From the NCBI GenBank assembly GCA_032718475.1, contig JAUCBJ010000417.1, forward strand, positions 1 to 64,000: a DNA stretch of 64,000 nucleotides, written 5' to 3'. The first letter of the stretch is position 1. Every line of letters begins with the position of its first letter. Source of the DNA: Nemertoderma westbladi. Taxonomy: Eukaryota; Animalia; Xenacoelomorpha. The position numbers were made by a program, and so were the translations under genes. A model generated the notes under the pieces. The model searched no databases. It saw only the letters and a program-made list of their open reading frames with translations, and had not been told where the DNA came from. Shown here in pieces: positions 12,349 to 59,441 of the stretch.

Positions 12349-13544
12349 TGTAAAAGCTTTTGTGGGATAACTGATTCATTTGCTTTGCTAACCAGTTCCC
12401 CCCAGTCGCTGAATACTCTAAAAAGGGATCTATAGGTAAAATAGTGCAAGCTACCAGCTTATTGGCTGATGGGCTGTACGAGAGTATCTGGGTTCTGTTC
12501 GATCGGCCAACCAGCTTAGGGAGGTTGCCTTAGCCCTGCTGTCCGTATCGGCCAATAGAATTTGAGTGGGCGTTGATTTTGACCTATCCCAGAGCTACTG
12601 AACTGAATTTTCCTATCTCACTGCTCATCCTCTGTGTTGGACGGGAGCTTCGGGGAATAAGGGTAGTTGGTATCCTCGTATAGTAAGGTAGTCATATGAT
12701 TTTATATAATTCTGTTGTTGTGTTCCCATTTTTCGCCATAACACCGGCTTTTGGGAAGAACTCTAGTAAAACTGCTTAAATTATCGAAAGTATAAACTGT
12801 TATCAACCTAATCAATCAATCTTATCTGATCTAATTAACTCACTATTAATCATATTGTTTGTACTGTTATTTACCGTCAGTTATTAATTGTATCTATTTG
12901 TTGATGGAAATATTGCTCTTTGGAGAATACCGATAAATCACCCAAATTTCCCAATTTTCTTGATACACTACAGGTTAGAGAGACAGGCTATATATAACAA
13001 TTGCGATTTATATTAATGTGGTGTGTATTGAATCGAATGTTATTTAGCAGACCCTACATGAGTCAATTGCTGCTCTCTTTATGTGTGATCAAATTTACTG
13101 ACGGTCGGCAGAATAGTGTGCATGATTGTGATTGGTAACAAAGCATTTCCTAAAGAATGCGCCTTATACTTTAATCATAAGCAGTATCGTTGCGTTTAGT
13201 ATAAGTCCTAGTTCTGTTTAAATAGATAAAGCGCCACGTCCTAAAGGAACTGTTAATATTTCCCGAAAGCCAATAATATCTGTCAGAAATTAATTATTAG
13301 TGATCAATCGAATAATACAGTAGATTTACACTGCAACCTTACACTGCAATAATAAAATTTAAGCAGCCGAATTCAGCCTCCCGGGTGTAGATCCATCGGG
13401 TGAATGATCGCGCATGGGCTGACTTCGGGTAATGTTTTGTTTATTAGCATAAAATATTGTCGTATGCTAAAGGTGTTTTAATTAACTAAAAGACATATAA
13501 ATTTTGGCAGGTTAAACTGCTAAAGGTCTTCAAAAGCGCGAACA
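12349..13544 (+). repeat. 5' LTR of element 1
   Basis: TGTAAAAGC...GCGCGAACA, direct repeat of 23392-24587. Confidence 0.97.
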
Positions 13545-13555
13545 ATAACAGTTTA
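13545..13555 (+). promoter_or_regulatory. Non-tRNA primer-binding site candidate (self-complementary to LTR 12793-12803)
   Basis: ATAACAGTTTA directly after the LTR CA is the exact reverse complement of TAAACTGTTAT in the LTR. No TGG-type tRNA PBS nearby. Confidence 0.75.
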
Positions 13556-15735
13556 CGATCTTATTGCAGTAGGCAATAAGGTTGCAAAATACCGTAGTGA
13601 CCGGTAAACCTGAACCGGTACTTCTGTAGGTCAGTAGGCCTAACTGTCATCACCGGTACCGGTACTGCTGTACAAGTACATTTAGTATTATTCGATTTTG
13701 ATTATTGTATACCGGTAGGTCTTGGTACTTAATCAGGGAACGGCCGCCCTGATTTTTATTTGAGATTCTACTTATTTCTGTCGGTTTTATTTACTAGTAG
13801 GCTAATATTGAGCAGAAGGCGTGTGACCCTGCTCAGATTGTTCAGATAATTGTAGGCTGAGCTGCTGTCTGACTGTTGTTGGGTTTGGAGAGATTACGGC
13901 GTGTGTAGAGTTTGTCTGATAAAGTGCCGTTAGTAAGTTGGGGCAGCCATATGCTGTAAGGTCAATCCCCTCTTAAAGAATAAGTCGTACTACCGTGTTA
14001 GAACGCATACTAACGAACTGTTTCAGAATCTGCATATACTGTAGTTTATTTAGGCTTGATCGTAGTCTGCCAGTGTTTTAGCCTGTGTTTGTTTGTGTGG
14101 TCTGTTCAGGTACCGTAATAGTTATTACTCAGATATTTTGTAGGCTGGATTGTTGTCTAGCTATTATTAGGTCTGAAGAGATTGCTGTGTGTGTGGAGTT
14201 TGTCTGATAAAGTGCGGTTAGTAAGTTGGGGCAGCCATATGCTGTAAGGTCAATCCCCTCTTAAAGAATAAGTCGTACTACCGTGTTAGAATGCATACTA
14301 ACTAACCATTTCAGAATCTACACGTACGGTAGTTTATTTAGGCTTGGTGGTAGTCTGCCAGCATTTGGTTTGTATTTTGTTTGAGTATTCTGTACGGGTA
14401 GCGTAATATTTATTATTCAGAGTTTATGCGATTATTCGCAACATTCATGTCCCCAAGTTTATTCCTACAGTAATTGTGCTTGTTATACATACCGTTATAG
14501 TTAAATTAACCCCGGTACTACACGGGCTGCTTGGCGTAGGACAAGACTGGTGACTTTGTGCTTCGGTCACTCCAGCAGATGCCGTGGTTCTTTTAACTGT
14601 TCAAGTATATTTAACTACTGATTATTTGTTATACCGGTACTTGTACCTAATTTAGGGTTTAGTGTACAGTGCTTTCCGAAGTAATTAGTGTGTAGGCAGT
14701 ATATTTGTGTTGTAAAGTGGTTGATAGGCACATTCGTTAGCTCTATTAACTTCTAGGTAGGAACACTCCGTGATACATAACGTAGTACCTATAGCGATAC
14801 GGTTATAGGTCGTCAGGCGGTGGTATTTTCCTATCTGGACAGTACAGTATATTTACTACTACTTATTATTTCAAATACCGTAGTACCCTGTCCATTGTAA
14901 TAACCAGAATTCTAACCCTTTGTTAGGCTGGTTTGTAGACTTCCTGTAAAATTACCCTAAAAATTCGTACGTAATATTTTTGTTGTGTTTAATTAGAGAA
15001 TTAATCTCACCCATATCGTAAGTAATTTGTAGTATTAAGTAACTTAGGTAAATTAGAATTATCAGTTTTAGTGTCAAATAAATAGCACTTCACTGAGAGC
15101 GCACAGCTTCTGTGTAGTGACCCCCCAGAAATAATAACATTTATTTCAAATATTGATAAAAAACCCTTTTTAAACGGGTATATAAATATTATAAATCAAC
15201 TCAAACGATTTATAAATAGTAGGCCTGCCATACAACAACTAGGTCTCAATATCAGTTGGACTACTGCTTAAATAACGGTAATAAAGTAAGTTAAAGTAAC
15301 CAAGTAACCTTAAAATATTCAGAAATTCAATTATTCTAAAAATAATTGACATACCGGTACTTACCATAGGCTTATCCTATTTATTTCTATAAATTCGAGC
15401 TGAAATCATACCGGTATTCTGTAATTAATTCTAGTTCATAATTATACTTATATATACTATAAGTGTCAGCTGTATACCGGTATTCACGATAGGCCTATTA
15501 TATATTTATATATATTTGTGCTAAAATTATATACCGGTACTCTGTGACAAATCTAGTCTGTAATAATACTTATATATATATTATAAGCATACCGGTATTC
15601 TAATATATTGTATATATATCACGTTACACTGAGTAACGGTATCGGTAATAAATTACTAGGCCAGCGGTCATACTGAATTACTAGACTTGCTTTAACTGAA
15701 ACTATAGTAGTAGACATTCAACTGTATAGCTAAAC

Positions 15736-18700
15736 ATGTCTGACACTCAGCAAAACCTGTCAGACAGTCTGATCGATACAACTATCTGTGACTCAGATAG
15801 GAGTATGGAGCGATTAAGAAAGGAGTTCAGCTCACCTCCTACTGCAAAAAAGGTCATCCCTCCAGTAGTATCAGACCCTAGGCTAATCCACCATAGGTCC
15901 ATCATAGGCACTCGGGCACAGGTCAAACGGAACCAAGAGGCAGTTGTCCCATCGCAGCAACATCTTGGTCAAGAACCTACTTCCCAGCGACCCGATAGCT
16001 CCAGCAGTTCGGATACTGTAGAGCTGACCCCCGAACGCGGAGTGCAGATGGCTGTTACAGTCTACTCGGACCCCCTTCTTACCCTGCCTGCTGCAGTGCT
16101 AACTACTATATTCATTGCGGTGGAGGAACATCAAGCCGACTGGGCGAGGAATAAGCGAGCGACCCAAGATAATTATGCGGGATACGCCAGGGAAGAATTA
16201 ATGTCTATTGTCGAGTTACAATGGAACTTTCCCGGACTCGGACTCCCGTTGGACCTGTCCGAGGCTACTTGGGAAGATATACACAGGATGGGAGTGGCAA
16301 AAGATACAATGGATCCAGCTGTTTGGAAGAGGTCGGCATCAGGATATGTGCAGGGATTCTTCGGCTCCTTGGAGCGATTGGAAGAACAACTGTTTCGACA
16401 ACCTCAAGGACCTCAAGAGCAGGAAGAGCTGCTATACCAAGTACGCGAAAGAACCCTACGCATTCGACTAATCCTCTCAGCCTTTGAGGAAACTTCCAAA
16501 AGAAGACAGGACACGTCGCTGCAGGTTGCTGTCAAAACTTGGTTACATCGGGTAGATCTCAAAGTACAGGAAACGGCCCCGTGGAAATCCCAGCTGGCTG
16601 AGAGATCAACCTATGAAGAACCAACTGATGTCACCCTTTCTCAAGCGGAAAGCGAAGAGACCGCCGAGAAACCGCGAACTAGAGACGCTATCGACATTTA
16701 TTTGTCCGACTATCAGCGATTCCTAGGAGACGAAGAGTTGAGGAGACGGCTGTCTGGACTTTCCCCTAATAGTGAAGGAACCAAGCTTGTGTTGGACTTA
16801 AACGATGCCGAAATGTTAGCTGCAAACCAAGCTGAATGTGATGAAAAACTCCGCCTCACTAGAGTCCGAGAAGAACAAATAAAGAAAAGAAGGATAGAGG
16901 AACAAAAGGCGGCGGCTATGGCAGAAGCAGAAGTAGAAAGAAAGGCAGCGGCGGCAGATGCAGAAGCAGAAAGAAAAGCAGCAAAGGCAGTGGCAGAAGC
17001 AGAACGGAGAGCCTCTGAGCAGACTACCCAACTGGAGTTGGAAAATCTGCAAGAGACACAAGACAGTATAAATAAACAGTTTACTGCTAATCAAATGCAG
17101 ATGATGAGAAAATCTACTCCCAAGCGCCAGGGATACACATCCTCGGAGGAAGGCGAGACTACCGATCCTGAAGGCGGAGGAAATAGATCTCATCTAAGTA
17201 GGCGTAGAAAAACATCTTACCGTCGCAAATTGCCTGATTTGCCACCAGCTGTTAGAAGACAGCTAGCTAGCACAGACTTGAGTAGTATAGAACCTACAGC
17301 CCAAAGTATTAAGGTCCAAAGACTCTCTACAATAGTTGATGAGCCTGAGATAATTAGGCCTGTCGTTCCCAAAGTCACTTCTGTGTTAGAGACCCCTGTA
17401 CTTCCAGAGCTTAACTCTAAATTCCCTTTACATAGTACTACACTGCCTGTACCCGGTGGAGCAGTCCAAGGGAATATCCCTGTCAAGATAGCAGAGAGAG
17501 AAATCAAAAATTTGTCTCCCGTCGTCCCGCGTCAGCCCGCTATTATGTTAGCGACTCCCGCTTCGGCGGTTGAGTGGGTGGAAGAGGGACGGCGGGGGAT
17601 GAATCTCCTAATAGGACAAATGCAGGAGACTGTCCACCAACTTAAGGGAACAGTGAGAGAAGGTAGAGCAGAGTTGCAAGAAGTGCAGCAAAGTATTGCA
17701 CTAGAACGCGATAAATTAGTCAATATACAAAGGGGCATACCAATACCCCCTGTAACATTGTGTCAACCTGTTAGGTCTGAAGTATTACATGCGCAAGGTG
17801 TGGAGCCTATACGCATCTATACTGCTAGTGAAGTTGAAACTCCTATAACAAACCCTATTAAGGGTGATTATAGACCTGTTATTAATGATATTCCCTATAG
17901 ACCTGATAATGATCCGAGAAATTTATATACCGATAATTCGATATTAAATAACACGATGGCCCAAGAAAGCTTTACGCGTCAGATGGCTAGAACAGAAGCC
18001 CGCCAAGCGGTCAAAGTGGGAGAGATCGTCAAATTCAATGGAGATGAGATGAAATGGTTACCTTTCAACGAATATTACAAAGATAGCATACAGAACTCTG
18101 TACTATCTAACGGAGAGAAACTTAGATTCCTCATCAAGTGCTTGGAAGGACCTCCCAAGTTAATGGCGTTAAAGTTTATTGGACATCCAGATGGGTTAAG
18201 ACAAGTTTGGGATACATTAAACATCAGGTATGGTAACAAGGATAACATAGCTAAGTATTTGTATGCAAAATTAGTAGCCCCTCGACACTTCCTTAGTAGC
18301 GGGATTATAGAGTTTTCCGATGAAATTCAAGAGATCTGTAGACAACTGGACTGGTTAGGTAAGTCGCATGAATATCAGAGTTCCATGGTCATTGGAGCCG
18401 TAGTCTCTACTTTACCAAAGGGTGGAGTATGTACGCGCTGGGACAAGAAAGTGTTGTACATGAATGAACAACAACGACGAAGTCCTACCATGGCTGATCT
18501 CATGTCCTTCTTAGATAGTGAAGTAAAATTACAACTCATAAGGCAGTCCAGAGAGAAAACATCGGAAAATAAGGTAAGTGAGAAACCCGTTTCTAGGAGA
18601 AGGATAATACCAGTGTGTTACACTGACGACGGCGAGAGCCAAGCTTCTCAAGAAGAGGACAGCGGGAAAGACACAGCAAAATCTTACTATGACAACAAGA

Positions 18701-20337
18701 CCTATAAAGACGTAAGTAAATACAAGTCTCGAATCAGTGACAGGAAAGAACAGGTAACAACAACTCCTCCTACGTCTCCTAAGAGAATTCACGGAAGAAA
18801 GCCCGAAGAAAGAACGAGAATGCATAACGTTACCCAAGGTAAGGTGAGTAACATCAAACCAAAATGTGCGCTGTGCGACGGGCCCCACCGTTTGAGTGCG
18901 TGTGCTGAATTTCTAAAGAAATCCCCTGTAGACAGACGTACAGTCCTGTGGAATAAGCGGTTATGCTATAATTGCCTCAGATCAGGACACCAACGGCGAA
19001 CCTGTTACTCCGACGTAAAGTGTGCAAAGTGTGGCGCGAAACATCACATCTTGTTACACAGTGAGTTCGAACGAGACAACCCGAGTCAGGTAAGTGAGCC
19101 CGAACTACATGTCCAATTCAGTGATGTGAACGACACTGACCAAGGTTCTGAGTGGGAAGGATTCTATACAGACGAATTCTCCGATGCCAACGAATCCTGT
19201 TATCTAATAAATACCACAGGATGGATGAAAAGGATGCCTTCACGCTTTTCACGCGCTTTTCACGCTTTTCACCTTACGGATGAAAAGGACACTGACGAGT
19301 TTACTCCAACTCCTTTTGACAAACAACCATCTTGGAAAGTTCCAACTTCCAACATAGGAATAAGAGAATTTCCTGTAGTGCAAGTTCGAGTTCATGGTCT
19401 CAATAAGAGTTACATAGTGAACGCCCTACTTGACTCCGGCAGCACAGGAACATTCATCGATCAAGAACTAGCCGAAGATATCTTTGCTGGACAACCCAAG
19501 TTCCGGACTAAATTGAATATGTCAGGAATTATGCAGGTTTGGAAATCTACCCTAACGGCAGATTACTATGTAGGTGTGTTGTCCACCCCCCAGGATAAGT
19601 TAGGAACACAAGGTATAAGGTCAGTAAAAATGGTGGCTATAAAGAACTTTGCTACTACTCAAGCAGACCTTTATAATTGGGACGAAGATGAGAGCATCCA
19701 ACATCTTAAGATACCTCGATTCCAGACAGATTATCCTGGAGTGCAAATACTCATCGGCCAAAACGCGCACGAGGCGCTCGAAACATTAGAGAAACGGCCT
19801 GCTCAACCACAGCCATTACAAACTTATGCGGTAAGAACTAGAGTAGGTTGGTACTTCACTGGCCCTTCCCGTAGAACTCTCAAAGAGAGATTACCTCAAC
19901 AACAGGTATACCAAGTAAAGGAATGGGAAGTGGAGAGCAGTGATGTGGACGATCCAACTGAGGGAACACCATACTCCTCAGATAATGACGATATTAACTC
20001 CAATGTAGATCAATGGAGACATTGCCTTGGGACGATTAATCCAGCCGACATCGCTTCCAGAGGAGCAACTCCTCAAGAACTGATGGATACTCCAGGCTGG
20101 TTAGGTGGATCCGACTCCTTAAGTAAAGAAGAAGAAGAATGGCCTCCTCATCTTACCACGGCAGAAATTAGACAGGCCAAGGGAGCGGAGAAAGTAACAC
20201 AACAACTCAATCGCCCAGCTAGTCGTTTATGTTTACTGGAAAGAGACCGAAAACTGTCCGAAAACTATGGAAGGCAAGATACTCTTCCTACGACTACTTC
20301 CCTAATCCGACAAATATCTAGGGACTCCATAACGTGA
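15736..20337 (+). CDS. BEL/Pao Gag-protease polyprotein with RT and integrase core deleted in frame
   Basis: Pao gag core (KFNGDEMKWLPF...LSNGEKLRFLIKCL), three zinc knuckles (CALCDGPHRLSAC, CYNCLRSGHQRRTC, CAKCGAKHHILLH), protease ALLDSGS, AVRTRVGWYFTGP, then directly the RNase H tail QWRH...NPADIASRG...W..G......WP and an integrase-tail-like RPASRLCLLE. No YxDD and no DDE. Confidence 0.9.
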   Translation: MSDTQQNLSDSLIDTTICDSDRSMERLRKEFSSPPTAKKVIPPVVSDPRLIHHRSIIGTRAQVKRNQEAVVPSQQHLGQEPTSQRPDSSSSSDTVELTPERGVQMAVTVYSDPLLTLPAAVLTTIFIAVEEHQADWARNKRATQDNYAGYAREELMSIVELQWNFPGLGLPLDLSEATWEDIHRMGVAKDTMDPAVWKRSASGYVQGFFGSLERLEEQLFRQPQGPQEQEELLYQVRERTLRIRLILSAFEETSKRRQDTSLQVAVKTWLHRVDLKVQETAPWKSQLAERSTYEEPTDVTLSQAESEETAEKPRTRDAIDIYLSDYQRFLGDEELRRRLSGLSPNSEGTKLVLDLNDAEMLAANQAECDEKLRLTRVREEQIKKRRIEEQKAAAMAEAEVERKAAAADAEAERKAAKAVAEAERRASEQTTQLELENLQETQDSINKQFTANQMQMMRKSTPKRQGYTSSEEGETTDPEGGGNRSHLSRRRKTSYRRKLPDLPPAVRRQLASTDLSSIEPTAQSIKVQRLSTIVDEPEIIRPVVPKVTSVLETPVLPELNSKFPLHSTTLPVPGGAVQGNIPVKIAEREIKNLSPVVPRQPAIMLATPASAVEWVEEGRRGMNLLIGQMQETVHQLKGTVREGRAELQEVQQSIALERDKLVNIQRGIPIPPVTLCQPVRSEVLHAQGVEPIRIYTASEVETPITNPIKGDYRPVINDIPYRPDNDPRNLYTDNSILNNTMAQESFTRQMARTEARQAVKVGEIVKFNGDEMKWLPFNEYYKDSIQNSVLSNGEKLRFLIKCLEGPPKLMALKFIGHPDGLRQVWDTLNIRYGNKDNIAKYLYAKLVAPRHFLSSGIIEFSDEIQEICRQLDWLGKSHEYQSSMVIGAVVSTLPKGGVCTRWDKKVLYMNEQQRRSPTMADLMSFLDSEVKLQLIRQSREKTSENKVSEKPVSRRRIIPVCYTDDGESQASQEEDSGKDTAKSYYDNKTYKDVSKYKSRISDRKEQVTTTPPTSPKRIHGRKPEERTRMHNVTQGKVSNIKPKCALCDGPHRLSACAEFLKKSPVDRRTVLWNKRLCYNCLRSGHQRRTCYSDVKCAKCGAKHHILLHSEFERDNPSQVSEPELHVQFSDVNDTDQGSEWEGFYTDEFSDANESCYLINTTGWMKRMPSRFSRAFHAFHLTDEKDTDEFTPTPFDKQPSWKVPTSNIGIREFPVVQVRVHGLNKSYIVNALLDSGSTGTFIDQELAEDIFAGQPKFRTKLNMSGIMQVWKSTLTADYYVGVLSTPQDKLGTQGIRSVKMVAIKNFATTQADLYNWDEDESIQHLKIPRFQTDYPGVQILIGQNAHEALETLEKRPAQPQPLQTYAVRTRVGWYFTGPSRRTLKERLPQQQVYQVKEWEVESSDVDDPTEGTPYSSDNDDINSNVDQWRHCLGTINPADIASRGATPQELMDTPGWLGGSDSLSKEEEEWPPHLTTAEIRQAKGAEKVTQQLNRPASRLCLLERDRKLSENYGRQDTLPTTTSLIRQISRDSIT

Positions 20338-21863
20338 TAGCATGTGGAGTGGGCGTGTGACTATATCATTTTATATTTGTTTTCATTTTATATTTATGTA
20401 TGTATTATTATGTAATTTTATTATAATCGTTTTCTTTAATTTTATTTAGTAGAATGTTATTTTAGAATATTTACTGTCCGTATTATATTATAAATGCGAG
20501 ACTATAGTAAGATGACATGTCAGTACTTCTTAAAGTACAATAAAGCCACTACTATATTTAAGTATTATTGGTAGGCAGAGTATTAGGAATGCAAAGTTCA
20601 GATCCTCGTGTCTCGGCTAAACCAAGCTCTGGGTAGACCTTGGAAACGACTTGCCTCTTCACACTGACATTGCTTCGTGCGATATTGCTCTTCTACCTTA
20701 TAACAAATAATACATATAGTAGCGTGATGTCCCTCTAACAGTAGCGTAAATCGCAAATAAATCTGTTAAACTTTTTGACCATCTGTAATTCTAGTCGATT
20801 AAGATATCGTGGCACCCACCGATATACTTGAAAGACAAATTCTAGAATCAGTGGTTAACGTCCCCAGACAAGTTCTGGAATAAATCGGTGCTCATCCTAA
20901 ATATTAATTTAATATTTATTAAAATCTGTAAAATCCCGATCCTTTAAAATTTCTAGTCAATTAAGATATCGCCGTATTTACCGATATTCTTAGAAGGACT
21001 ATTTTATAGAATCAAGGATCCTAAGTCCCCAGATATGCTCTGGAATAAAATTTGTGTCAATTTAACATCAAATAATAAAATTCACGGGAATAAATTTAAA
21101 TTCATATTCAAATGAATTTCATAAATTGTCATTTTTGTGCAATTTATAACATTCCCAAAATTCCAGTAATTAATAGATCATGGGAGCGGAGATTCATATT
21201 GAGTGTACTAGAGTGCGAGAATCTCCAACATATAGTCAATAGCCGATAAAATTTATAAAATCATGCATAAAGAGGATATTGACAATTAAAGAATTACTAT
21301 TAAATAGCATCCCAGATCTGTATGCATGAGAATTACCCTAATTCTACCGCTAGTTTTCCATAATGTCACCATGGCAACACCCACGCTAGAATTAGAAGCA
21401 AGTTAAAGGAACAGTAAAAAGCTTGCCCCATTGCGTAGCATAAGAGTATACATAGCGCACTATTAGTATCCAAGGATACATAGTAATAACGTGACATTCT
21501 GGAAGACACTGACTAACGGACAAATGGCATGCATGTGTGCAGTAAGTAATGATTGTATGGAATTTGTGCGTTTATAGGTGAATGTTACTACTAAAGTGTG
21601 TTTACAGTAGCTAATCGCAATTGTAAAATAGCCCTAACTCTACCGAGATAACCTCAAGTGGATTCAAACCTTTGGGACGGACAGTGGTGGGACTTGTGCC
21701 GGTTATAGTTGTCGTGCTGTTGCTACATGTTGGCGTAAACACCGCGACAACGGTACATCGGCGCTGAGAAACCCACTGTCCGGGGGCAAAGCCTAGTAGG
21801 CAGCGACGCCCGCTTGCCTAAAATATTAACTCATATTGATATTAATAAACTCAGATAGCAGAT

Positions 21864-23313
21864 ATGACGGAATTGATAGAACATGACCTTGGTATCAGGG
21901 AGCGATATACTCTACCTTTACAAGCGTTTGTGGATAGCTTGATACGCGGTGAAGACGATCCGACTATTACGGAGGACGATGGTCGTTATATCGAACCGCC
22001 GATGTCCCAGGAACAACTTACGCGTGAATTGGACTATAGAAAATTCACCGCTCCCTATACGAATCGTAATGGTACGTATATGGACTTCTTAACTACCGGC
22101 CATCCTACCGATTTACATGATACGGACGATGTATACACCGAAAGGGAAATGGTTCTATTTAAATATCATACCCAGCAGAGTCGTAACGATAAACCGAGAA
22201 TAGATCACGAAAATTATATTCGTAACAGACTGGGAAGACGAACCCATATGTTTAGAATCTGAAGAGATTCAGCCCCCCACGTCTCGGAGTAGCGATAGCG
22301 ACTACATATGGGAATGGTATCAAGGTCCACAGTGTCTCACTGCGTACGATTATCGCCATGCCAACTATGTTTCTCGGCAACGTTGTCGGTTATGCGCATC
22401 GAGAGACCATATTACGTCTATGGACACCAACGATCTCTGTTCCTATTTCCACGAGCAACCGTCGATGGAAATCTATTGTGCATATTGTCGGCTTAATAAT
22501 TTGCACATTTTTGCTGTCTGCCCCCAATTTATGACTCAATGCCATCATTGTCAATTAAAAGGACACGCCAGCTTTGATTGTCCCTTTAATCATGATTTAG
22601 AGAGCGTAGATGAAATGATTGTACTACGTTATATCAGAGCTTGGGAAGCGAACGCTGATTTACATTGTGATTCACGCCATCGCTATTACCCTGGACGCGC
22701 TTACGAAGGAGATTATGCGTTCCATCCTTATTTATTCGCTTCTGTCGAACAGAAATCACGCATATCAAGTTATGAACTACTGAAGCGCGTTGGAGAATGT
22801 ATTTCAACCAAATATGTACGCAAATTTCTCAGGAGCATTAATCCGAGTGACATCTATTCTTACAACTTAATAAACTTTATCCGTCAAGACCCTGCCTATG
22901 GAGACTTATTTGTCAACTCACACCCCGAGTTACAGGAAGTATATCGACGGCCTTACGAGTACCGAGCCCGCGAACGCGAGTTGGAAAGAACCATTAAACC
23001 AAGGAAGTTTCTAACTGCCTATGGTCCACCCTCGGCCCTCGTTCAGACCACTCGTAAAGGACCCGTAAGAGCGGCTGCCTTGAAACGAGCTCTCAAAGCC
23101 GTTAGACCCCTCTCCCCGGACGTTGATGTCAATCAACCCGGTACTTAGACCGGCGGATATACCGATCGTAATCCCATACCTTCTGATGCAATCATATTGC
23201 ACCCTTCACCCAGGAGTTATAGCCCTCCTCGTAAAGTGGCTCGCCCCAAAGAGAAAAGGACTCTTGCTAGCTTTAAAAAACTGCGTAAACGCCGTCCGCG
23301 CAAGAAAGACTAA
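21864..23313 (+). pseudogene. Internally deleted copy of the element's extra ORF2
   Basis: N- and C-terminal parts match 53597-57851. About 2.8 kb is deleted near 22232 at a GAAGAC microhomology, causing a frameshift. TAG at 23146-23148 corresponds to TCG in element 2. Retains CxxC..H..C knuckles and a basic tail. Confidence 0.85.
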
Positions 23314-23391
23314 CTGTTTAGAGTATTTTTATATTTTAGAAACTGTGATTTTGTATATTTTATAGACTTAAATCCCATTTTCTGGGAGCGG

Positions 23392-24587
23392 TGTAAAAGC
23401 TTTTGTGGGATAACTGATTCATTTGCTTTGCTAACCAGTTCCCCCCAGTCGCTGAATACTCTAAAAAGGGATCTATAGGTAAAATAGTGCAAGCTACCAG
23501 CTTATTGGCTGATGGGCTGTACGAGAGTATCTGGGTTCTGTTCGATCGGCCAACCAGCTTAGGGAGGTTGCCTTAGCCCTGCTGTCCGTATCGGCCAATA
23601 GAATTTGAGTGGGCGTTGATTTTGACCTATCCCAGAGCTACTGAACTGAATTTTCCTATCTCACTGCTCATCCTCTGTGTTGGACGGGAGCTTCGGGGAA
23701 TAAGGGTAGTTGGTATCCTCGTATAGTAAGGTAGTCATATGATTTTATATGATTCTGTTGTTGTGTTCCCATTTTTCGCCATAACACCGGCTTTTGGGAA
23801 GAACTCTAGTAAAACTGCTTAAATTATCGAAAGTATAAACTGTTATCAACCTAATCAATCAATCTTATCTGATCTAATTAACTCACTATTAATCATATTG
23901 TTTGTACTGTTATTTACCGTCAGTTATTAATTGTATCTATTTGTTGATGGAAATATTGCTCTTTGGAGAATACCGATAAATCACCCAAATTTCCCAATTT
24001 TCTTGATACACTACAGGTTAGAGAGACAGGCTATATATAACAATTGCGATTTATATTAATGTGGTGTGTATTGAATCTAATGTTATTTAGCAGACCCTAC
24101 ATGAGTCAATTGCTGCTCTCTTTATGTGTGATCAAATTTACTGACGGTCGGCAGAATAGTGTGCATGATTGTGATTGGTAACAAAGCATTTCCTAAAGAA
24201 TGCGCCTTATACTTTAATCATAAGCAGTATCGTTGCGTTTAGTATAAGTCCTAGTTCTGTTTAAATAGATAAAGCGCCACGTCCTAAAGGAACTGTTAAT
24301 ATTTCCCGAAAGCCAATAATATCTGTCAGAAATTAATTATTAGTGATCAATCGAATAATACAGTAGATTTACACTGCAACCTTACACTGCAATAATAAAA
24401 TTTAAGCAGCCGAATTCAGCCTCCCGGGTGTAGATCCATCGGGTGAATGATCGCGCATGGGCTGACTTCGGGTAATGTTTTGTTTATTAGCATAAAATAT
24501 TGTCGTATGCTAAAGGTGTTTTAATTAACTAAAAGACATATAAATTTTGGCAGGTTAAACTGCTAAAGGTCTTCAAAAGCGCGAACA
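23392..24587 (+). repeat. 3' LTR of element 1
   Basis: Direct repeat of 12349-13544, followed by TSD GATTC. Confidence 0.97.
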
Positions 24588-38738: not shown

Positions 38739-39901
38739 TGTAAAAGCTTTTGCGGACATAACAAGTAATTTTTACGCAATACGCAGAATTCTCTAAAATA
38801 GCCCTAAATTTATCCAACTACGCGACGGGAAGGAATTGTAACCCAGATGACGAAATCTGTCAGCTGATTCTTTGTGGACGTGGAGGTTCTTTGTTCTGCC
38901 TTATTCAGCCAATCAGAGCGATTTTCACTTTATGTCTAACAGAAACCTATGGAAACTCGCGCAATGCATTACGGTCTTTGTTTACTATTTTCTGAGCATC
39001 AGAGCCAGCTCGGATTTTTCTGTGCTTCTGTGTGGAAGTTTCAGACTTTGGCCTAGGAACATCAGATGGCCTTGATTATAAGAACGTAAAACTATTAACC
39101 TGGATACACCCTGGATCACTGGATACACTCTGAATCACTTAACTGATCATACTCAACTCACCTGACTGCCTGACTTTCATACTCAATAAGTAAAACATGC
39201 TGACTGTTCACCGCATTATTTTACTTCCTTCTGTGTGGAGGTCTTTTATTAATTGTTGTTATATTAATGGATATTGCTGTTATATTTGGAGAATACCGAT
39301 AAATAATCATAAACCCCTCAATCTTCTTGATTACTGAGGTAAGAGGAACAGGTTTACCGGTAGCATTAGCGACTTAAATTAAAGTGGTTTTTGTGTGAAT
39401 TAAATGCTATTTCATAATCCCTATGTGTGTCAGTTGCGATCCTCCTTATATATGATAAAATTCACTGACGGTTGGCAGATTAGAGCGAACTAGTGTGAAG
39501 TAGTGTGAAGTCGTGTGAAGTAGTGTGAAGGTTAATAAAAGAATGCGCTATTTATGAAACTCTGTGGCCATCTAGTTGTGATTATATAAGTCATAACTCT
39601 GCTTTTATACTTAAAGCGCCACGTCCTAAAGGAACTGTTAGTATTTCCCCGAAAGTAAATATATTTGTCAGAGATTATATACTAGCGATCAATCGAATAA
39701 TACAGTAGGTCTACACTGCAATAACTCTCAAGGAATCCGAATCCAGTCTCCCACACCGTGGGTCATACGACGCGCACGGACTGGCTTCGGCTGACGTAAC
39801 TTCAGTACACTAGGTAATTGATATAGGCTAAAGTCGATTTATAAACAAGAGGACAACTAAAATTGGCAGATTAAACTGCTAAAGGTCTAAAAGCGCGAAC
39901 A
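38739..39901 (+). repeat. 5' LTR of element 2
   Basis: TGTAAAAGC...GCGCGAACA, repeat of 57930-59063 with several substitutions and indels. Confidence 0.95.
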
Positions 39902-39912
39902 TTAATAGTTTT
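39902..39912 (+). promoter_or_regulatory. Non-tRNA primer-binding site candidate (self-complementary to LTR 39088-39098)
   Basis: TTAATAGTTTT directly after the LTR CA is the exact reverse complement of AAAACTATTAA in the LTR. Confidence 0.75.
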
Positions 39913-47338: not shown

Positions 47339-47661
47339 GTAGAATTATCTGTATTAGTGTTTAACAAGTAGCACTCCACTGAGAGCGTTCAGCTTCTGTG
47401 TAGTGACTCCTTATCCAGAAATAATAACATTTATTTCAAATATTGTCAAAACCCATTGTACGGGTATATATATATATATTTATAAATCAAATCAAACAGA
47501 TTTATAAAATAGTAGGCCTGTCATACATCAATTAGGTCTTAACATCAGTTGAACTACTGCTTAATATCAGTAATAAAGTAAAGGGAAGTAAACCTAAAAT
47601 TCAGAAATTCAGTTATTATTAAATAATTGACATTACCGGTATTTACGGTAAGCTTATTATA

Positions 47662-51242: not shown

Positions 51243-51493
51243 GTAAGCTTATTATATTTATATAAATTTAGGCTGAAATTATATACCGGTATTCTGTGAC
51301 TGATCCTAGTCTGTAAATAATACTTATATATATACTATAAGTGTACACCGGTATTTTAATATTAATTATATATATCACGTTACACTGAGTAACGGTATCG
51401 GTAACTAACTACTAGGCTGACAGTTGATACTGATTCTTCTGGACTTGCTTTAACTGTCGTTATAGTAGTAGACATTCAACTGTAAAATAAATC

Positions 51494-52605
51494 ATGTCTG
51501 ACACAAAGCAAACACTGTCAGATAGTCTCCTAGAAAGAACAATCTGTGACCCAGATAAAAGTATCGAACATCTAAGACCAAAGTCCAAGTCCCCTCCTAC
51601 TGTAAGAAAGGTCATCCCTACAGTAGTAGTATCAGACCCTAGGCTAGTAAAGCACCATGGGTCTATTATAGGCACTAGGGCTCAAGTTAAGCTAGACCAA
51701 GAGACAGCTGTTAAACAGCAGCAGCACCCGAGCCGAGAACTTATTTCTCAACAGCAGAATAACTCTAGTAGTTCCGACACTGAAGAGTTAACGCCCGAGA
51801 TCGGAACAAGGATGGCAGAAGAGGTTTACCCAGATCCACTTCTAATTCTTCCGGGGCCGTACTCACTAGAGTATTGATCGCTGTGGAGGAACATCAAGCC
51901 GATTGGACGAGAAATAAGAGATCGACCAGGGACAGTTATGCGGGATACACGATGGAGGAACTAAGGTCTATTGTAGAGACGCAATGGTACTTCCTCGGAC
52001 TCCCGTTTAACTTATCGGAAGCTGCCTGGGAGGACTTATACAGAATGGGAATAGTAAGGGACACTAGAGATCCAGCTGTATGGAAGAGGTCAGCAGCAGG
52101 ATATGTCCAGGGATTCTTCAGCTCTTTGGAGCGATTAGAAGAACACCTATTTCAACAATGTCAAAGACCTCAAGAGCAGGGAGAGCTGCTTTATCAAGTG
52201 CGAGAACGAATCTTATGGATCAGATTAATCCTTTCAGCCTTTGAGGAAGCCTCGAAGAGAAGCCAAGACACGTCGTTGCAAGTAGCTGTAAAGACTTGGT
52301 TCCAACGAGTGAGTGTTAAGGCCCAGGGAACGACACAATGGAAAGTTCAGCTAACTGAGTGCATGACCCACGGAGAATCAACAGATGCCACCTTTTCTCA
52401 AGTGGAAGGCGAAGCGATATCCAAAAAACCTCAGAAGAAGAAGGATGCGATTGACATCTATCTGTCGGATTATCAACGATTTATAGGTGACAAAGAGCTA
52501 AGGAGACGGCTAGCTGGACTTCACCCCAATAGTGAGGTAGCCAAATTCGTGTTAGATTCTTTAGATGCGGAAATATTAGCTGCAGAGCAAATAATGTCCA
52601 TTTAA
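51494..52605 (+). pseudogene. Element 2 gag N-terminal remnant (frameshift; deletion removes the rest of gag and all of pol)
   Basis: Homologous to aa 1-365 of 15736-20337. At ~52595 it joins sequence equivalent to element 1 ~20725. Confidence 0.9.
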
Positions 52606-53596
52606 CAGTAGCGTTGAAACGTAAAATAAATCTGTTAAACCCTTTGACCATCTGAAATTCTAGTCGATTAAGATATCACGGCACCCACCGATATACTTGA
52701 AAGACAAAATTCTAGAATCAGTGGTTAACGTCCCCAGACATGTTCTGGAATAAATCGGTGCCCATCTTAAATATTTATAAAATCTGTTAAAACAAATGTT
52801 ACAATAGAGTAAATGCTGACAAATTAACTCTAGAAAATCTATAAATCAAAATCTGTTAAAATTTAGATCCTCTAAAATTCTAGTCGATTAAGATATCGTA
52901 GCACTTACCGATACTCTTAAAAAGACAAAATTTCTAGAATTAAGGATCCTAGTTCCCAGACATGTTCTGGAATAAAATTGTGTCTATTTAATATCAAATA
53001 ATAAAATTCACGGGAATAAATTTTAAATTCATATCCTCTCATGAATTTGATAAATTGTCATTTTATACAATTTATAACATTCCCAAAATTCCATTAATTA
53101 ATAGATCATGGGAGCGGAGATTCACCCTATTAAGTATATTAGTGTGCGAGAATCTCCAGTGTACAGTACATAGCCGATAAAATTCATAAAATCATGTATA
53201 AGGGGAACATAATAATAACGTGGCATTCTGGAAGGCACTTGACTAACGGACAAATGGCCTGAATGTGTACAAATTGTGACAGGAGTGTGGAATTTGTGTA
53301 TTTATAGGTGAATGCTACTACTAAAGTGTGTTTACAGTAGCGAGTCGCAGTTGTGAAAGTTACCCTGCCTCTGTAGCAAGAACCTCCAGTAAATCTAAGC
53401 CCTTGGGACAGACATTGGAGTGACTCGCGCTGGTTATTGTTGTCGTTGTGTAGCTACTATGTTGGCAAAAGGCACAGCGATGACAGTACATCAGCGCTGA
53501 GGATCTTGCGCTGTCCGGGGGCACTGAGGGGGAGGCAGCGACGACCGCTAGCCTAATCATTATTAATAATAATATTGATAAACTCATATAGCAGCT

Positions 53597-56500
53597 ATGA
53601 CTGAGTTAATAGAAGATGATCTTGGTATCAGGGAGCGATATACCCTACCATTGCAAGCGTTTGTTGATAGTTTAATAAGCGGCGACGCTAGTCAACTTAC
53701 TACGGAGGACGATGGCCGTTATATCGAACCGCCAATGTCAAAGGAACAGCTCACGCGTGAATTGGACTATAGAAAATTCACCGCTCGCTATACGCATCGT
53801 AATGGTACGTATATGGACTTCTTAACTACTGGTCATCCTATCGATTTACACGAAACGGACGATGTAGACACCGAAAGGGAAATGATCCTATTTAAATATC
53901 ATACCCAGTGGAGTCGGAATGATAAACTGAGAATCAAACATGAAAATTCTATTCGAAACCGACTCAAAAGAGAAGACGTTGAAGAGCCGGATAAACGCAG
54001 TGACTTCAACGAATATTTGGAATTCTTGAGAGAAACATATCTCAATGTGGCCAGTCAACAAAATCTAGAAACTCGATATCCTCAAGGTATACATCATAAC
54101 TCTATGATAGAACTCAAACGACTCTATTTCACTATGATGTATCTTACCGCCGATCGACCACTACCTGTTGTACCGGATAGCTTCGAACAGATGGAGGAAT
54201 ATTGTAAAACTGGAGAAAGATCACCCGCGTTTCCCCTACAAGACGTGCGTCTTTGGTATTATTGCGATGAATGCCCTAGACCCAACCAACAAACGGAAAG
54301 ACACAAACATCCGCTGATACGTTGCGCTAAACACAGTTTCACTCGCTATACTTACGGGAGTTTCGAGCGAAACTTGTTCGACGTATCACCCACACTCGCT
54401 CGACTCAAACGATCCTTAAATAAACCTATGATCAGAGTTCCGGAATACTCGGTCAGACCTCCGCATTCCCTGGTGAGACCTCAGACTCTTGATCCTAATA
54501 GTATGGCAGATCCTCCTGAACTGTACTCATTGTTCAAAGATCTAGTCTTACCCGAACAATTAGTCGGTGGCACTCCGGTTGTGGGCTCCCTAGATATATG
54601 CCCATCCTACCTAGCCGGATTGGGACGTGGACATCTAATATCGCCGTTCAACCCATATAAACGTCCCGGTTTAACCCCGATACAACCCATCACCGAGGTG
54701 GAAGAGAGCGTTGTACAAAACGCATTAGACGCTATTCGACAAAAGATCGGAAAAGGAACTTACGATTGTTTAGACAAACGTAAATTGCAACAGCAAGTCC
54801 AAGCGGTAAAAGAATTAGCTTTACCTCAGTTCGATTGGGAAATCCAGAATCTCGAAGAAGATATCGAACTTGGACGAACCTACTCTCTACAAGAGTTTTT
54901 AGACGAACGCTTCCAATGACAAGCGGAGGAAAATCAGCTCGAGGAGAAGCACATCGAAATGGACGAGAGAGAAGAAGCAGCTTTAGCCCAGCCAGAAGCT
55001 CAAATCCTTATGACTGATCTCTATTCCAAAACCATTATTTATCCTTCGATGGTTCCCCATTTCAGAGACAAACTCTTCGCCATGGTACAACCCCAACCAG
55101 TTGATATCAACTTAAGATCTAGAGATCTTATCGCTGACGCTCCTATGTTGCAAAGTCCGCCAATCGAGGCCGCTCGTGTCGACGGTATACTCGTTTAACC
55201 TCCGGACAAACGAGCGGATCTTGTCCGTGGTATGGTACACGAGGTCAACCTACGTGCTAGACCTTTACCGAACTCATTTTATGGAATCAAAGATCACCCC
55301 TATTATGTCAATTTAACTCAATATTATATGGTGAAACCGGAAGATCCTACACACAGTTTAAGGTTTCTACCACTGATAAACCCCCTAGATCTTGTTGAAC
55401 TCGAACAACTACAGAAACATCTAGATCAATTGGTCAAAGTAAACTCATTCAGAAAACCTTATAATGTTTCAAGAATAGAAAAGGATATAATGCCTCCGTA
55501 TAATCTCGATGGATTTATTAAAACTCGATTAGTCCATTGGAATCTCGATGTATTATTCGAGGAAGAGAGAATACAGCGATATGGAGATGCAGAGACTTAT
55601 ACTACACATTATCTGAAGTATAGCGTTCTACCTAACGCAAGCGAACGCGCCACCTTATGGCATCCGGTGGGTATGACCATAGAATACGCCACCAAAGAGT
55701 GGAACGAAACTCTTAACGTTATCGAAATGTATGGAGTTGTCACTTACGATAACAAAGGTAGCGTTCCGGTTGGAGAACTGGGAACTACGCAAATGATACA
55801 CATATGTAGACTAGCTGGTTCTACCCATGTGTTTACTCGAGCGTGTTCCGACGTGATCGATTATTCTTTTGAGACTCTCACCGAGATACAAAAGAAACTC
55901 TGACATGGACAATTCAAACTCGCGCAGCGTTATGTTACCGATACCGAGCGCAAACCGGCCATGGGTATAGATGGATCGATGCTACCCCAGCCAGTGCTCG
56001 AGATGCTGTTTGACGAGAGAATCCTTAAAATCGGCTCGGCTGTTTATGGAGATCTCCAAAATGACTTCAGAAACATGGAGAATATCCCATATCCTTTCGT
56101 AGACACCCAGCTGATTGCTCCATGGTCAGAAGGCCGAGGTTTCTTCCGAACTATGTATGCTAATACATCCAGCGGAATCAATAAAGTACAACTAACCTCT
56201 ATCGGACATCTTGCCTTCCAAGAATATGGATGGAATTTCAAGGTCGGAAACCCTGTCAGCTACCAACAAGTATATGGAGATCATTATTCTCGATTATACT
56301 TTGACGGACCATTAACCACACCTGGCGTCGTTTATAGCTTCATGAGTGTTACACTCCATCCCTCATTAGCTATATACACTATCTTCGAGAACGCCGCACT
56401 TGCCGGTTGGCTAGCCGATGTGTGCAGTCGCACTATACGAGCCCATCCCTTGTTACTTGGAACCAAACTCGCCAAGCTAGATGAACACAATAAATTCATC

Positions 56501-57851
56501 CGATTCGAATGCTTTAGGCGCTTTCTGACTCCGTTCCGTAACGTTGGTAGTCAGTTCAAGGACCGCGCTCTGACCCAGCTCAGCTTAAGAGACTCAGCTG
56601 CTGAGAAGTTGGACAGCCCTGGATTCGCCATTTTTAAGGACATTTGTATACAGAACTTACATTCATCTGTCATACAAAGACCCCGAATCCCCACAGGTTA
56701 TTCTATCGTGGAAGTTGAAACAGTGGGTTTGCTTGAGGAGACAGCTACACCTACCTCAGCTATGCAATTGGAAGACAAACCAATTTGCTTAGAATCCGAG
56801 GAGATTCAACCCACAGCGCCCAGGAGCAGTGACAATGACTACGTTCTGGAATGGTATCAAGGTCCACAATGTCTCACTGCATATTACTATCGGCATGCCA
56901 ATTATGTTTCTAGGAAACGTTGCCGATTATGCGCATCACGAGATCACTTCACCCCGGTGGACTCCAGCGTACCCTGCTCCTACTTTAAAGATCAACCTTC
57001 TATGGAGATTTATTGTATTGTATTGTATACTCAATAACCTACACATCTTCGCAGTCTGTCCTCAATTTATGACTCAATGTCATCATTGCCAGTTTAAAGG
57101 ACACGCAAGTTTCGATTGGCCTTTCAACCGAGATCTAGAAAGCGTAGACGAAATGGTTGCCCTGCGTTATATTCGAGCCTGGGAAGCTAACGCGGATCTC
57201 CATTGCGAATCACGTCATCAATACTACCCTGGACGTGCCTATGAAGGAGTCTATGCGTTTCACCCATATCTCTTTGCTTCTGTTGAGCAAAAATCTCACA
57301 CCCCTAGCTACGAGCTAATGAAGCGTGTTGGCGAGAATATTTCGACTAAATTTGTTTGCAAGTACCTTAGGAATATTAATCCTAACGACCTTAATTCCTA
57401 TAACTTGATCAACCTCATCCGTCAAGATCCGGAATATGGTGACTTGTTCATAAACTCGCATCCAGAGCTACAAGAAGTTCAGAGACAACCCTATGAATAT
57501 AGAGCCCGAGAACGCGAGTTGGAAAGAACCATCAAACTGAGGCAATTTCTCACTACTCACGGTCCACCTACCGCTCTCGTGCAAACGACTCGTCAGGGAC
57601 CAGTAAGAGCTGCTGTCCTGAAACGCGCTCTAAAGGTTGTTCGACCTCGTTCCACTGAGGTTGATATCGATCAACCGGGTACCTCGACCGGCGGATACAC
57701 CGACCGTCATCCTAAACCTTCGGATGCAATCGTATTGCACCCATCACCCAGGTGTTATAGCCCTTCTAGTAAAGTGGCTCACCCCAAAGAGAAAAGGACT
57801 CTTACTAGCCTTAAAAAACTTTGTAAACGCCGTTCACGAAAGAAGGACTAA
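53597..57851 (+). pseudogene. Extra ORF2 of the BEL/Pao family (~1,417 aa reconstructed): degenerate DEDDy exonuclease-like domain + zinc knuckles + basic tail
   Basis: Track ORFs 53597, 54959, 55232 and 55961 are all in one frame separated by single stops (TGA, TAA, TGA). One +1 frameshift near 57020 relative to element 1. Confidence 0.85.
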
Positions 57852-57929
57852 TAGTTTAGAGTATTTTTGTATTTTATAAACTGTGATTTTTTATATTTTA
57901 TAGACTTAAATCCCATTTTCTGGGAGTGG

Positions 57930-59063
57930 TTTAAAAGCTTTTGCGGACATAACAAGTCATTTTTACGCAATGCGCAGAATACTCTAAAATAGCCCTAAAT
58001 TTATCCAACTACGCGACGGGAAGGAATTAGAACCAAGATGACGAAATCTGTCAGCTGATTCTTTGTGGACGTGGAGGTTCTTTGTTCTGCCTTATTCAGC
58101 CAATCAGAGCGATTTTCACTTTATGTCTAACAGAAACCTATGGAAACTCGCGCAATGCATTATGGTCTTTGTTTACTATTTTCTGAGCATCAGAGCCAGC
58201 TCGGATTTTTCTGTGCTTCTGTGTGGAAGTTTTAGACTTTGGCCTAGGAACATCAGATGGCCTTGATTATAAGAACGTAAAACTATTAACCTGGATACAC
58301 CCTGGATCACTGGATACACTCTGAATCACTTACCTGATCATACTCAACTCACCTGACTGCCTGACTTTCATACTCAATAAGTAACACATGCTGACTGTTC
58401 ACCGCATTATTTTACTTCTGTGTGGAGGTCTTTTATTAATTGTTGTTATATTAATGGATATTGCTGTTATATTTGGAGAATACGGATAAATAATCATAAA
58501 CCCCTCAATCTTCTTGATTACTGAGGTAAGGGGAACATGTTTACCGGTAGAAACTGCGACTTAAATTAAAGTGGTTTTTGTGTGAATTAAATGCTATTTC
58601 ATAATCCCTACGTGTGTCAGTTGCGATCCTCCTTATATATGATAAAATTCAATGACGGTCGACAGATTAGTGCAAATTAGTGTGAAGTAGTGTGAAGTCG
58701 TGTGAAGTAGTGTGAAGGTTAATAAAGCATCTCCTAAAGAATGCGCTATTTACGAAACTCTGTGGCCATCTAGTTGTGATTAGTATAAGTCATAACTCTG
58801 CTTTTATACTTAAAGCGCTTAAATACTTTGTCAGAGATTATATAGTAGCGATCAATCGAATAATACAGTAGGTCTACACTGCAATAACTCTCAAGGAATC
58901 CGAATCCAGTCTCCCACACCGTGGGTCATACGCCGCGCACGCACTGGCTTCGGCTGATGTAACTTCAGTACACTAGGTAATTGATATAGGCTAAATTCGA
59001 TTTATAAACAAGAAGACAACTAAAATTGGCAGGTTAAACTGCTAAGGTCTAAAAGCGCGAACA
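57930..59063 (+). repeat. 3' LTR of element 2
   Basis: Preceded by GGGAGTGG; starts TT (TG mutated); ends GCGAACA followed by GATTGG. Confidence 0.95.
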
Positions 59064-59441
59064 GATTGGTCTGTCCGTTGTCCATGTTTTCTGTGTCCAG
59101 TCCACCTTTTTCAAACACCTCCAATTGACTTGCAGAGCTATTACACGTCGTTCAGGGTAGGGTGTTTGGGTATCACGATTAGGGGTGCGGTGCAGTCACG
59201 CTACCTACAAATACAATACTAAATTATAAATTAATTTACGAGTTTGTACAGTGAATTTGTATATATTCTATATTCCGTTATCTATATTCCTGTCTATTCT
59301 ATCAATTATAGTGGAACCGTAGGCTACTTAAGAGAATTAAAAGTACAAACTCATAAAAATAAATAAATACAAAAAATCTCCATGATTGCAAATGATTACT
59401 TCCACTATGATGGATATAACTTTGTGGAAGTGTTGGCAGTG

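What the first reader, a model, noticed from the sequence alone, without database searches (positions are those of the whole stretch)
53597..57851. Extra ~1,400-aa ORF2 in a BEL/Pao element: degenerate DEDDy 3'-5' exonuclease-like domain plus zinc knuckles
Seen: a sense ORF between pol and the 3' LTR in both elements, not env-like (no signal peptide or TM). Region ~55700-56360 shows DnaQ/WRN-type motifs in order: ExoI-like VVTYDNKG, LPQPVLEMLFDERILKIGSAVYGDL (the LPxxLxxLLxDxxILKVG...D signature), FVDTQ, SIGHLAFQEYG, and PLTTPGVVYSFMS (ExoIII-like). The ExoI Glu and ExoIII Asp appear replaced in this copy. C-terminal CRLC...H...C, CAYC-x5-H-x4-C and CHHC-x4-H-x4-C knuckles (intact in element 1) and an NLS-like KKLRKRRPRKKD tail. 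Known: EXD1, Egalitarian and Mut-7/Nibbler use this fold for RNA binding, transport or small-RNA trimming. Inference: a captured RNA-binding/trimming accessory factor (piRNA antagonist, RNA transport or primer processing). I know of no such BEL/Pao ORF.
Basis: partly seen in the sequence, partly recalled or inferred. Interest (0 to 1): 0.82.

Follow-up and report, generated by a model that had tools for sequence, protein, structure and literature searches.

The report
Exonuclease gene inside a BEL/Pao retrotransposon
A high-copy jumping-gene family in this animal carries an extra, conserved gene with an RNA-trimming-type enzyme domain plus zinc knuckles; this copy is broken, but in working copies the protein likely trims the element's own RNA ends, perhaps the primer the element appears to make from its own transcript.

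Summary
53597-57851 is a ~1,416-codon ORF (3 stops, 1 frameshift) between a gag remnant and the 3' LTR of a BEL/Pao element. It is under purifying selection (dN/dS 0.17 and 0.05 between the two elements; 26 of 27 sites varying among other copies inside the exonuclease-like part are third-codon). A DEDDy (RNase D/WRN-like) domain is supported by an independent profile (13.9 bits, 0 of 500 shuffles) and by the one homologue found among 1.84 billion proteins, which has the same exonuclease-plus-three-knuckles layout. The ExoI Lys is private to this copy; other copies are acidic there. Element 1 lacks the domain altogether. Unasked extras: both elements lack a tRNA primer site and show Tf1-like 11-nt self-priming complementarity, and a conserved hairpin precedes the ORF. 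DEDDy extra ORFs are already described in gypsy-like rotifer LTR elements (PMC5408684); my searches found none for BEL/Pao. New variant of a known kind.

The parts
53597..57851 (+). ORF2 of element 2, about 1,416 codons, pseudogene in this copy (stops at 54917, 55196, 55901; frameshift near 57016)
   Evidence: purifying selection
53597..54916 (+). N-terminal 440 residues, no assigned family; first 120 codons conserved with element 1
   Evidence: Pfam only DUF7009 E 0.01, below cut-off; Atlas weak MYND lead 0.90 with low recognition; dN/dS 0.17
55690..56430 (+). DEDDy (RNase D/WRN-like) 3'-5' exonuclease-like domain with two insertions; interrupted by the stop at 55901
55736..55759 (+). ExoI motif; Asp present, second position Lys only in this copy
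   Evidence: (table 3)
56027..56053 (+). ExoII motif, Asp present and invariant in the 73-row alignment
56309..56347 (+).
56354..56392 (+). ExoIII candidate B (Tyr-x3-Glu, matches the homologue; only synonymous change at the Glu codon in other copies)
56921..57119 (+). three Cys/His zinc knuckles, second and third damaged in this copy
57813..57848 (+). basic C-terminal tail (NLS-like; untested)
53401..53520 (+). conserved long RNA hairpin about 80 nt upstream of the ORF2 start (also at about 21670-21790)
   Evidence: z -6.3 and -5.0, 0 of 200 shuffles each; 43 of 43 pairs kept, 3 two-sided changes, but 68 of 500 shuffles reach this
38739..39901 (+). 5' LTR of element 2 (TG...CA; 6-bp target duplication GATTGG)
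57930..59063 (+). 3' LTR of element 2; 35 of 1,122 aligned bases differ from the 5' LTR
39902..39912 (+). primer-site position of element 2: 11 nt complementary to 39088-39098 inside the LTR, followed by a hairpin
13545..13555 (+). primer-site position of element 1: 11 nt complementary to 12793-12803 inside the LTR, followed by a hairpin
12349..24587 (+). element 1: LTRs 12349-13544 and 23392-24587 (2 of 1,195 bases differ), 5-bp duplication GATTC, gag-protease ORF 15730-20337, no reverse transcriptase
21864..23313 (+). ORF2 remnant of element 1, exonuclease region deleted, knuckles intact
51480..52605 (+). gag start remnant of element 2 (rest of gag-pol deleted)

Best explanation
ORF2 is a conserved extra gene of a high-copy BEL/Pao family, broken in this copy, whose product joins a DEDDy-type exonuclease domain to three zinc knuckles and likely works as an RNA 3'-end trimming enzyme on the element's own RNA. 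Shown: the ORF, its purifying selection, the DEDDy similarity, acidic ExoI and ExoII residues in the family, the 11-nt LTR/primer-site complementarity. Inferred: ExoIII is the Tyr-x3-Glu register, so the active site is D-E-D-E plus Tyr and active; the knuckles hold it on element RNA in the particle; the likeliest substrate is the self-primer, i.e. the transcript's 5' end pairs with the primer site, is cut somewhere downstream, and the exonuclease trims the 3' overhang back to the 11-bp duplex that reverse transcriptase extends. Deleted copies such as both elements here would be served in trans.
For: Selection: dN/dS 0.17 (120 codons, CI 0.08-0.32) and 0.049 (356 codons, CI 0.03-0.08), shifted frames 1.1-2.0; inside the domain 27 of 34 variable places are third-codon, 26 of 27 among those not near-fixed against this copy. 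Fold: 51-sequence DEDDy profile chosen without this protein scores it 13.9 bits, 0 of 500 shuffles reach it (best 1.9), best of 97 window pieces; pair-versus-profile hhalign 90-92%, best of 40 column shuffles 0.8%; blind search with the two-sequence profile hit PF01612 places in 12 of 13 checkable cases. Homologue P0004 (E 2.4e-4) has exonuclease plus three knuckles, 25 of 30 Atlas hits in the PF01612 set and a clear D-x-E / D / Tyr-x3-Glu set. ExoI position acidic in 86,818 of 86,936 summed depth in run X1 and likewise in the other 3 runs. Register B: best ungapped match to P0004's ExoIII (8 versus 0), helix propensity 0.36 versus 0.66 where 61 reference domains reach at most 0.60. Self-priming layout: chance 9 and 16 of 5,000, sequences differ between elements yet pair, pairing probability 0.57-1.0 in folds of 823 and 885 nt.
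Against: Pfam gives no exonuclease hit for any piece or the X read-through and only E 0.2 for P0004; PDB sequence search nothing; the WRN-like 17-sequence profile scored only 3.4 bits, 2 of 500 shuffles higher or equal. The unguided model failed (pLDDT 33.5; no Foldseek match); the RNase D match (E 9.4e-4) comes from a model guided by DEDDy sequences and is partly circular. The transcription start is assumed, not shown. Tf1 makes its primer by RNase H cleavage without such an enzyme (PMC7175516). No uninterrupted full-length ORF2 and no copy with pol was seen; P0004's genomic context is unknown. No activity or expression was measured.
Confidence: 0.42

Rival explanations
1. The domain is a pseudo-nuclease RNA-binding module (Egalitarian/EXD1-like, recalled): ExoIII is the reader's register with Ser, and the protein binds a structured element RNA, such as the hairpin upstream of ORF2, for transport, packaging or translation.
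For: Register A chosen in 16 of 16 alignments with full bacterial domains, accepted by the guided AlphaFold model, and unchanged at the protein level in other copies. Conserved hairpin upstream. Knuckles resemble nucleocapsid knuckles in P0004. Egalitarian-BicD is among the weak Foldseek rows.
Against: ExoI and ExoII acids are kept family-wide; the homologue has an acidic ExoIII that aligns to register B with collinear anchors; register A has poor helix propensity.
Confidence: 0.28
2. An active exonuclease used against host silencing: it would trim or destroy piRNAs/siRNAs or their precursors, helping the family reach high copy number.
For: Very many copies (31,198 contigs of run X1 laid on 6.5 kb); Nibbler and EXD-type enzymes share the fold (Nibbler row; roles recalled); PMC5408684 notes a possible link of DEDDy ORFs with higher copy number in Juno1/2 and entertains a silencing role.
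Against: No small-RNA data; the same paper finds Vesta2/5 with the ORF are low-copy; contig depth is no copy number; does not explain the self-priming layout.
Confidence: 0.22
3. A captured host or foreign gene carried passively, or a chance motif resemblance.
For: No curated family hit; only one homologue, at modest E-value.
Against: Strong purifying selection across two diverged subfamilies and among copies; several independent similarity tests.
Confidence: 0.04

Closest known systems
DEDDy ORF3 of bdelloid Juno1/2 and Vesta2/5 LTR retrotransposons and Terminons (Rodriguez, Kenefick, Arkhipova 2017, PMC5408684)
   Same: Separate ORF after pol in an LTR element; RNase D-like DEDDy domain; catalytic residues reported intact; no TM domain; proposed 3'-end processing of element RNA; activity untested.
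   Different: Those are not BEL/Pao elements; their variant motif is DEED, here D-E-D-E (register B) or D-E-D-S (register A); here the ORF is ~1,400 aa with three knuckles, which that paper does not describe. I could not compare sequences (not fetched), so shared origin is untested.
RNase D / WRN / EXD2 / Nibbler DEDDy exonucleases (PF01612)
   Same: ExoI-ExoII order, the core between them, profile and guided-fold similarity.
   Different: Below Pfam cut-off; about 40- and 25-residue insertions; ExoIII acid is Glu or missing; fused to knuckles inside a retrotransposon.
Tf1/sushi self-priming LTR retrotransposons (PMC7175516, PMC4600332, PMC6317226)
   Same: 11 nt next to the 5' LTR complementary to an 11-mer in the LTR; no tRNA primer site.
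   Different: Described for gypsy-type Tf1/sushi/Tcn1 and copia-type TAR; ICTV describes tRNA-Arg/Gly priming for Belpaoviridae (PMC8742986); Tf1 uses RNase H cleavage; here the loop would be about 750-800 nt.
P0004 (unnamed 648-aa ENA protein)
   Same: Exonuclease domain (29% identity over the best stretch) followed by a low-complexity linker and three knuckles.
   Different: No long N-terminal region; context unknown; singleton cluster.

Membership tests
BEL/Pao (Belpaoviridae) | LTRs with TG...CA and 5-6 bp target duplication | tested here: met
   (element 2's 3' LTR start is mutated)
BEL/Pao (Belpaoviridae) | BEL-type gag (DUF1759), triple knuckle, aspartic protease | tested here: met
   DUF1759 E 8.4e-12, protease E 0.02 in element 1; that DUF1759 and the triple knuckle mark BEL/Pao is recalled; element 2 linked by DNA and gag similarity
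BEL/Pao (Belpaoviridae) | Reverse transcriptase phylogeny and PR-RT-RH-IN order | not testable with these tools
   RT is deleted in both copies; no genome held
BEL/Pao (Belpaoviridae) | 18-nt tRNA-Arg/Gly primer site (ICTV profile) | tested here: not met
   no such site by inspection; LTR-complementary 11-mer instead; no tRNA set was searched
DEDDy 3'-5' exonuclease (PF01612) | Score above Pfam cut-off | tested here: not met
DEDDy 3'-5' exonuclease (PF01612) | Significant profile similarity to DEDDy domains | tested here: met
DEDDy 3'-5' exonuclease (PF01612) | ExoI D-x-E and ExoII Asp | tested here: met
   met in the family, not in this copy
DEDDy 3'-5' exonuclease (PF01612) | ExoIII Tyr-x3-Asp | tested here: inconclusive
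   Tyr-x3-Glu or Tyr-x3-Ser depending on register
DEDDy 3'-5' exonuclease (PF01612) | RNase H-like fold in an unbiased model | tested here: inconclusive
   unguided model failed; guided model matches RNase D but is partly circular
DEDDy 3'-5' exonuclease (PF01612) | Exonuclease activity | not testable with these tools
   needs an assay
Bdelloid retroelement DEDDy ORF pool | Clusters with Juno/Vesta/Terminon DEDDy ORFs; DEED motif | not tested
   sequences not available in my calls; motif differs from the DEED given in PMC5408684
Tf1-type self-priming elements | 11-nt complement of the primer site inside the LTR | tested here: met
Tf1-type self-priming elements | The complement is the 5' end of the transcript | not testable with these tools
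   only DNA contig runs were listed
env-like ORF | Signal peptide and transmembrane anchor | tested here: not met
   hydropathy scan

The most novel reading that the evidence does not exclude
A BEL/Pao lineage that has dropped tRNA priming for self-priming and encodes its own D-E-D-E exonuclease-nucleocapsid protein to trim the self-primer to length: a dedicated primer-maturation enzyme in an LTR retrotransposon, with relatives in other eukaryotes (P0004).
Probability: 0.17. Interest if true: 0.86.

Novelty: new variant of a known kind. Interest (0 to 1): 0.62.

Why it matters
Extra ORFs in BEL/Pao elements are described only as env-like in the sources I read. A selected exonuclease-plus-knuckle ORF shows that DEDDy capture by LTR elements is not a rotifer oddity and has happened in a second superfamily, and it gives the open question from PMC5408684 (what do these exonucleases do?) a concrete test: a defined candidate substrate (an 11-bp self-priming duplex) and two candidate catalytic registers. 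Self-priming in BEL/Pao would itself extend that mechanism to a third superfamily.

Tried and rejected
No genome held, so no search for other full copies. Word-index protein searches: ORF2 530-1030 none of 4,552 candidates; P0004 exonuclease and knuckle regions only itself; only near-length proteins were searched. No related loci in metagenome, viral (68) or prokaryote genome contigs (80), or plasmids (79). Earlier findings of the scan: nothing. No RNA holder listed. Rfam: 0 matches; tRNA genes 0. PDB sequence searches with single sequences gave no exonuclease. The Atlas was not run on the window's own exonuclease domain, so that evidence is for the homologue only. Two-sequence AlphaFold model unusable. 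My early note that ExoIII Asp is Ser family-wide was replaced by 'two registers'; my later note that register B is certain was also too strong. The C-terminal hydropathy used a wrong frame and was redone. MYND lead for the N-terminus rejected as weak. A third register (QQVYGD) rejected (score -32). Covariation of the upstream hairpin is not significant with two sequences. Tf1 primary papers PMC1563812 and PMC231564 were not held.
Full report
Setting. Self-comparison shows two related LTR elements. Element 1 spans 12349-24587, LTRs differing at 2 of 1,195 bases, 5-bp target duplication; element 2 spans 38739-59063, LTRs differing at 35 of 1,122 bases, 6-bp duplication. Element 1 encodes a gag-protease with DUF1759 (E 8.4e-12) and knuckles, which I file as BEL/Pao from recalled family marks; neither element has a reverse transcriptase, so both are deleted, non-autonomous copies and an RT tree was impossible. 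No whole genome is held.

The ORF. It starts at 53597 and ends at 57851, about 1,416 codons, with three stops and one frameshift. There is no transmembrane stretch. Element 1 keeps only the two ends: the part equal to about 53964-56770, with the whole exonuclease-like region, is deleted.

Selection. Between the two elements dN/dS is 0.17 over 120 N-terminal codons and 0.049 over 356 C-terminal codons; the gag control gives 0.18 and shifted frames 1.0-2.0 (the C-terminal dS of 2.0 is near saturation). For the domain itself I laid four DNA contig runs (at most 3 samples; one may be the source sample). On 52600-59100, 31,198 contigs of run X1 were laid, so the family is abundant, though depth is no copy number; 40 of 1,474 difference rows were shown. 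There the stop at 55196 is not shared by other copies in 4 of 4 runs (the other two stops were not among the rows shown), and the second ExoI codon differs from this copy in 86,818 of 86,936 summed depth in X1 and nearly all depth in the other three runs, giving an acidic residue. On 56200-56420 all rows were shown: 34 variable places, 27 at third codon positions (P 5e-8). Splitting at a share of 0.93 in X1, a cut I chose after seeing the table, 26 of 27 sites varying among other copies are third-position, while 6 of the 7 near-fixed differences to this copy are first or second position. The family is constrained; this copy has decayed.

Is it a DEDDy domain? Against: no Pfam exonuclease hit for 8 pieces or 3 X read-throughs, no PDB sequence hit, a 17-sequence WRN-like profile gave 3.4 bits with 2 of 500 shuffles as high. 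For: phmmer over 1.84 billion proteins returned one hit, P0004 (E 2.4e-4, residues 777-944), a 648-aa singleton with the same exonuclease-linker-three-knuckle layout. Its domain drew 25 of 30 Atlas hits from the PF01612 set at 0.94 (that cluster carries the family on 34% of members, and the scores are not calibrated for parts). A profile of the two sequences gave 3 PDB hits at E<10, two being RNase D (1.4) and EXD2 (2.0), and in 151 bacterial genomes gave 37 weak hits, of which 13 lay in genomes mapped for PF01612 and 12 of these fell on such domains (compared by hand). A profile of 51 DEDDy domains, leaving out the 24 picked by that search, scored the window's domain 13.9 bits (0 of 500 shuffles; top of 97 window pieces, next 0.7), mainly on the ExoII core; hhalign of the hand-anchored pair gave 90-92% against 0.8% for the best of 40 shuffles. 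The unguided AlphaFold model failed. With 71 bacterial domains and P0004 as alignment, pLDDT was 57.9 overall, 74-93 over the ExoII core, and Foldseek ranked RNase D first (E 9.4e-4); 37 of 38 listed chains are DEDD-type by title and recall. That last test is partly circular.

Active or dead? ExoI Asp and ExoII Asp are present and invariant in the 73-row alignment; the second ExoI acid is present in other copies. ExoIII has two registers, both unchanged at the key residues in other copies. Register B (56354-56392) has Tyr-x3-Glu; it is what BLAST and pairwise MAFFT align to P0004's clear ExoIII, MAFFT chose it in 16 of 16 runs when bacterial domains were cut before ExoIII, it is the best ungapped match (8 versus 0, a small margin), its helix propensity fits (0.36 versus 0.66; 61 of 75 reference domains with a parsable motif range up to 0.60; scale recalled), and other copies match the homologue at the residue before it. 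I put B at about 2:1.

A candidate substrate. Neither element has a tRNA primer site by inspection. The 11 nt right after each 5' LTR are exactly complementary to an 11-mer inside the LTR (13545-55 with 12793-803; 39902-12 with 39088-98), the two 11-mers differ, and chance is 9 and 16 of 5,000 simulated LTRs; of 300 leader offsets, 4 (element 1) and 1 (element 2) have such a complement, offset 0 in both. If transcription starts at the 11-mer (assumed), the duplex forms in the folded 823- and 885-nt RNAs. In Tf1 the first 11 bases pair with the primer site and RNase H cuts between bases 11 and 12 (PMC7175516). A 3'-5' exonuclease that stops at a duplex would suit this step, but Tf1 does without one, so the link is inference. 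A long hairpin conserved upstream of ORF2 may serve translation or be a binding site.

Literature. PMC5408684 (parts 1-3 of 5 read: all main text) describes DEDDy ORF3s in bdelloid Juno and Vesta elements and Terminons, with intact residues and untested activity. PMC8742986 (whole text) lists gag, pol, env and tRNA priming for Belpaoviridae. Passages only: PMC6431247, PMC3118150 (0 occurrences of 'exonuclease'), PMC6317226, PMC3601003, PMC12440569, PMC6338049, PMC4600332, PMC7175516. Searches for a BEL/Pao exonuclease ORF and BEL/Pao self-priming showed no such report in listings or the passages read; Repbase, subscription journals and supplements were not seen and could hold one. Roles of EXD1, Egalitarian and Nibbler are recalled, apart from the mention of EXD1 in PMC5408684.

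Verdict. A real, selected accessory gene with a DEDDy-type domain and knuckles in a BEL/Pao family; dead in this copy, probably catalytically complete in the family; most likely an RNA-end trimming enzyme for the element's own RNA. New variant of a known kind; interest 0.62.

Noticed in passing
13545-13590 and 39902-39945: Tf1-like 11-nt self-priming complementarity in place of a tRNA primer site, followed by a conserved 9-12 bp hairpin; not described for BEL/Pao in what I read.
   Followed up: yes
53401-53520 and about 21670-21790: Long conserved RNA hairpin (z -6.3, -5.0) about 80 nt upstream of the ORF2 start, followed by an AU-rich leader; no Rfam match.
   Followed up: partly
P0004: Unnamed 648-aa protein with DEDDy domain (Glu at ExoIII) and three knuckles; the Atlas shows unnamed eukaryotic clusters, mostly fungal where known, scoring 0.94-0.95, a possible wider family.
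   Followed up: partly
52600-59100 in runs X1-X5: Many internal-deletion forms of ORF2 exist in other copies (table 5), including one close to element 1's deletion.
   Followed up: no
39902-53200: Element 2's interior is interrupted by a LINE-like insertion (47668-50803, RT and endonuclease), pieces of the element into which element 1 is also inserted (45476-46575), and tandem repeats (40858-41610).
   Followed up: no
509-6000: Array of about 119 copies of a 45-bp unit with open frames of up to 1,797 codons.
   Followed up: no
8839-11013 (-), 26247-29975 (-), 6553-7290 (+): Host genes SMUBP-2-like helicase, RPAP1 and PSMD13 with long uninterrupted frames, suggesting an intron-poor genome.
   Followed up: no
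31477-33282 (+): Pogo/Tigger-like DDE transposase ORF with a C-terminal Cys-rich finger (DDE_1).
   Followed up: no
42845-43537 (-): 230-aa Cys-rich ORF with a C-terminal hydrophobic anchor and no Pfam hit, lying inside element 2's span.
   Followed up: no
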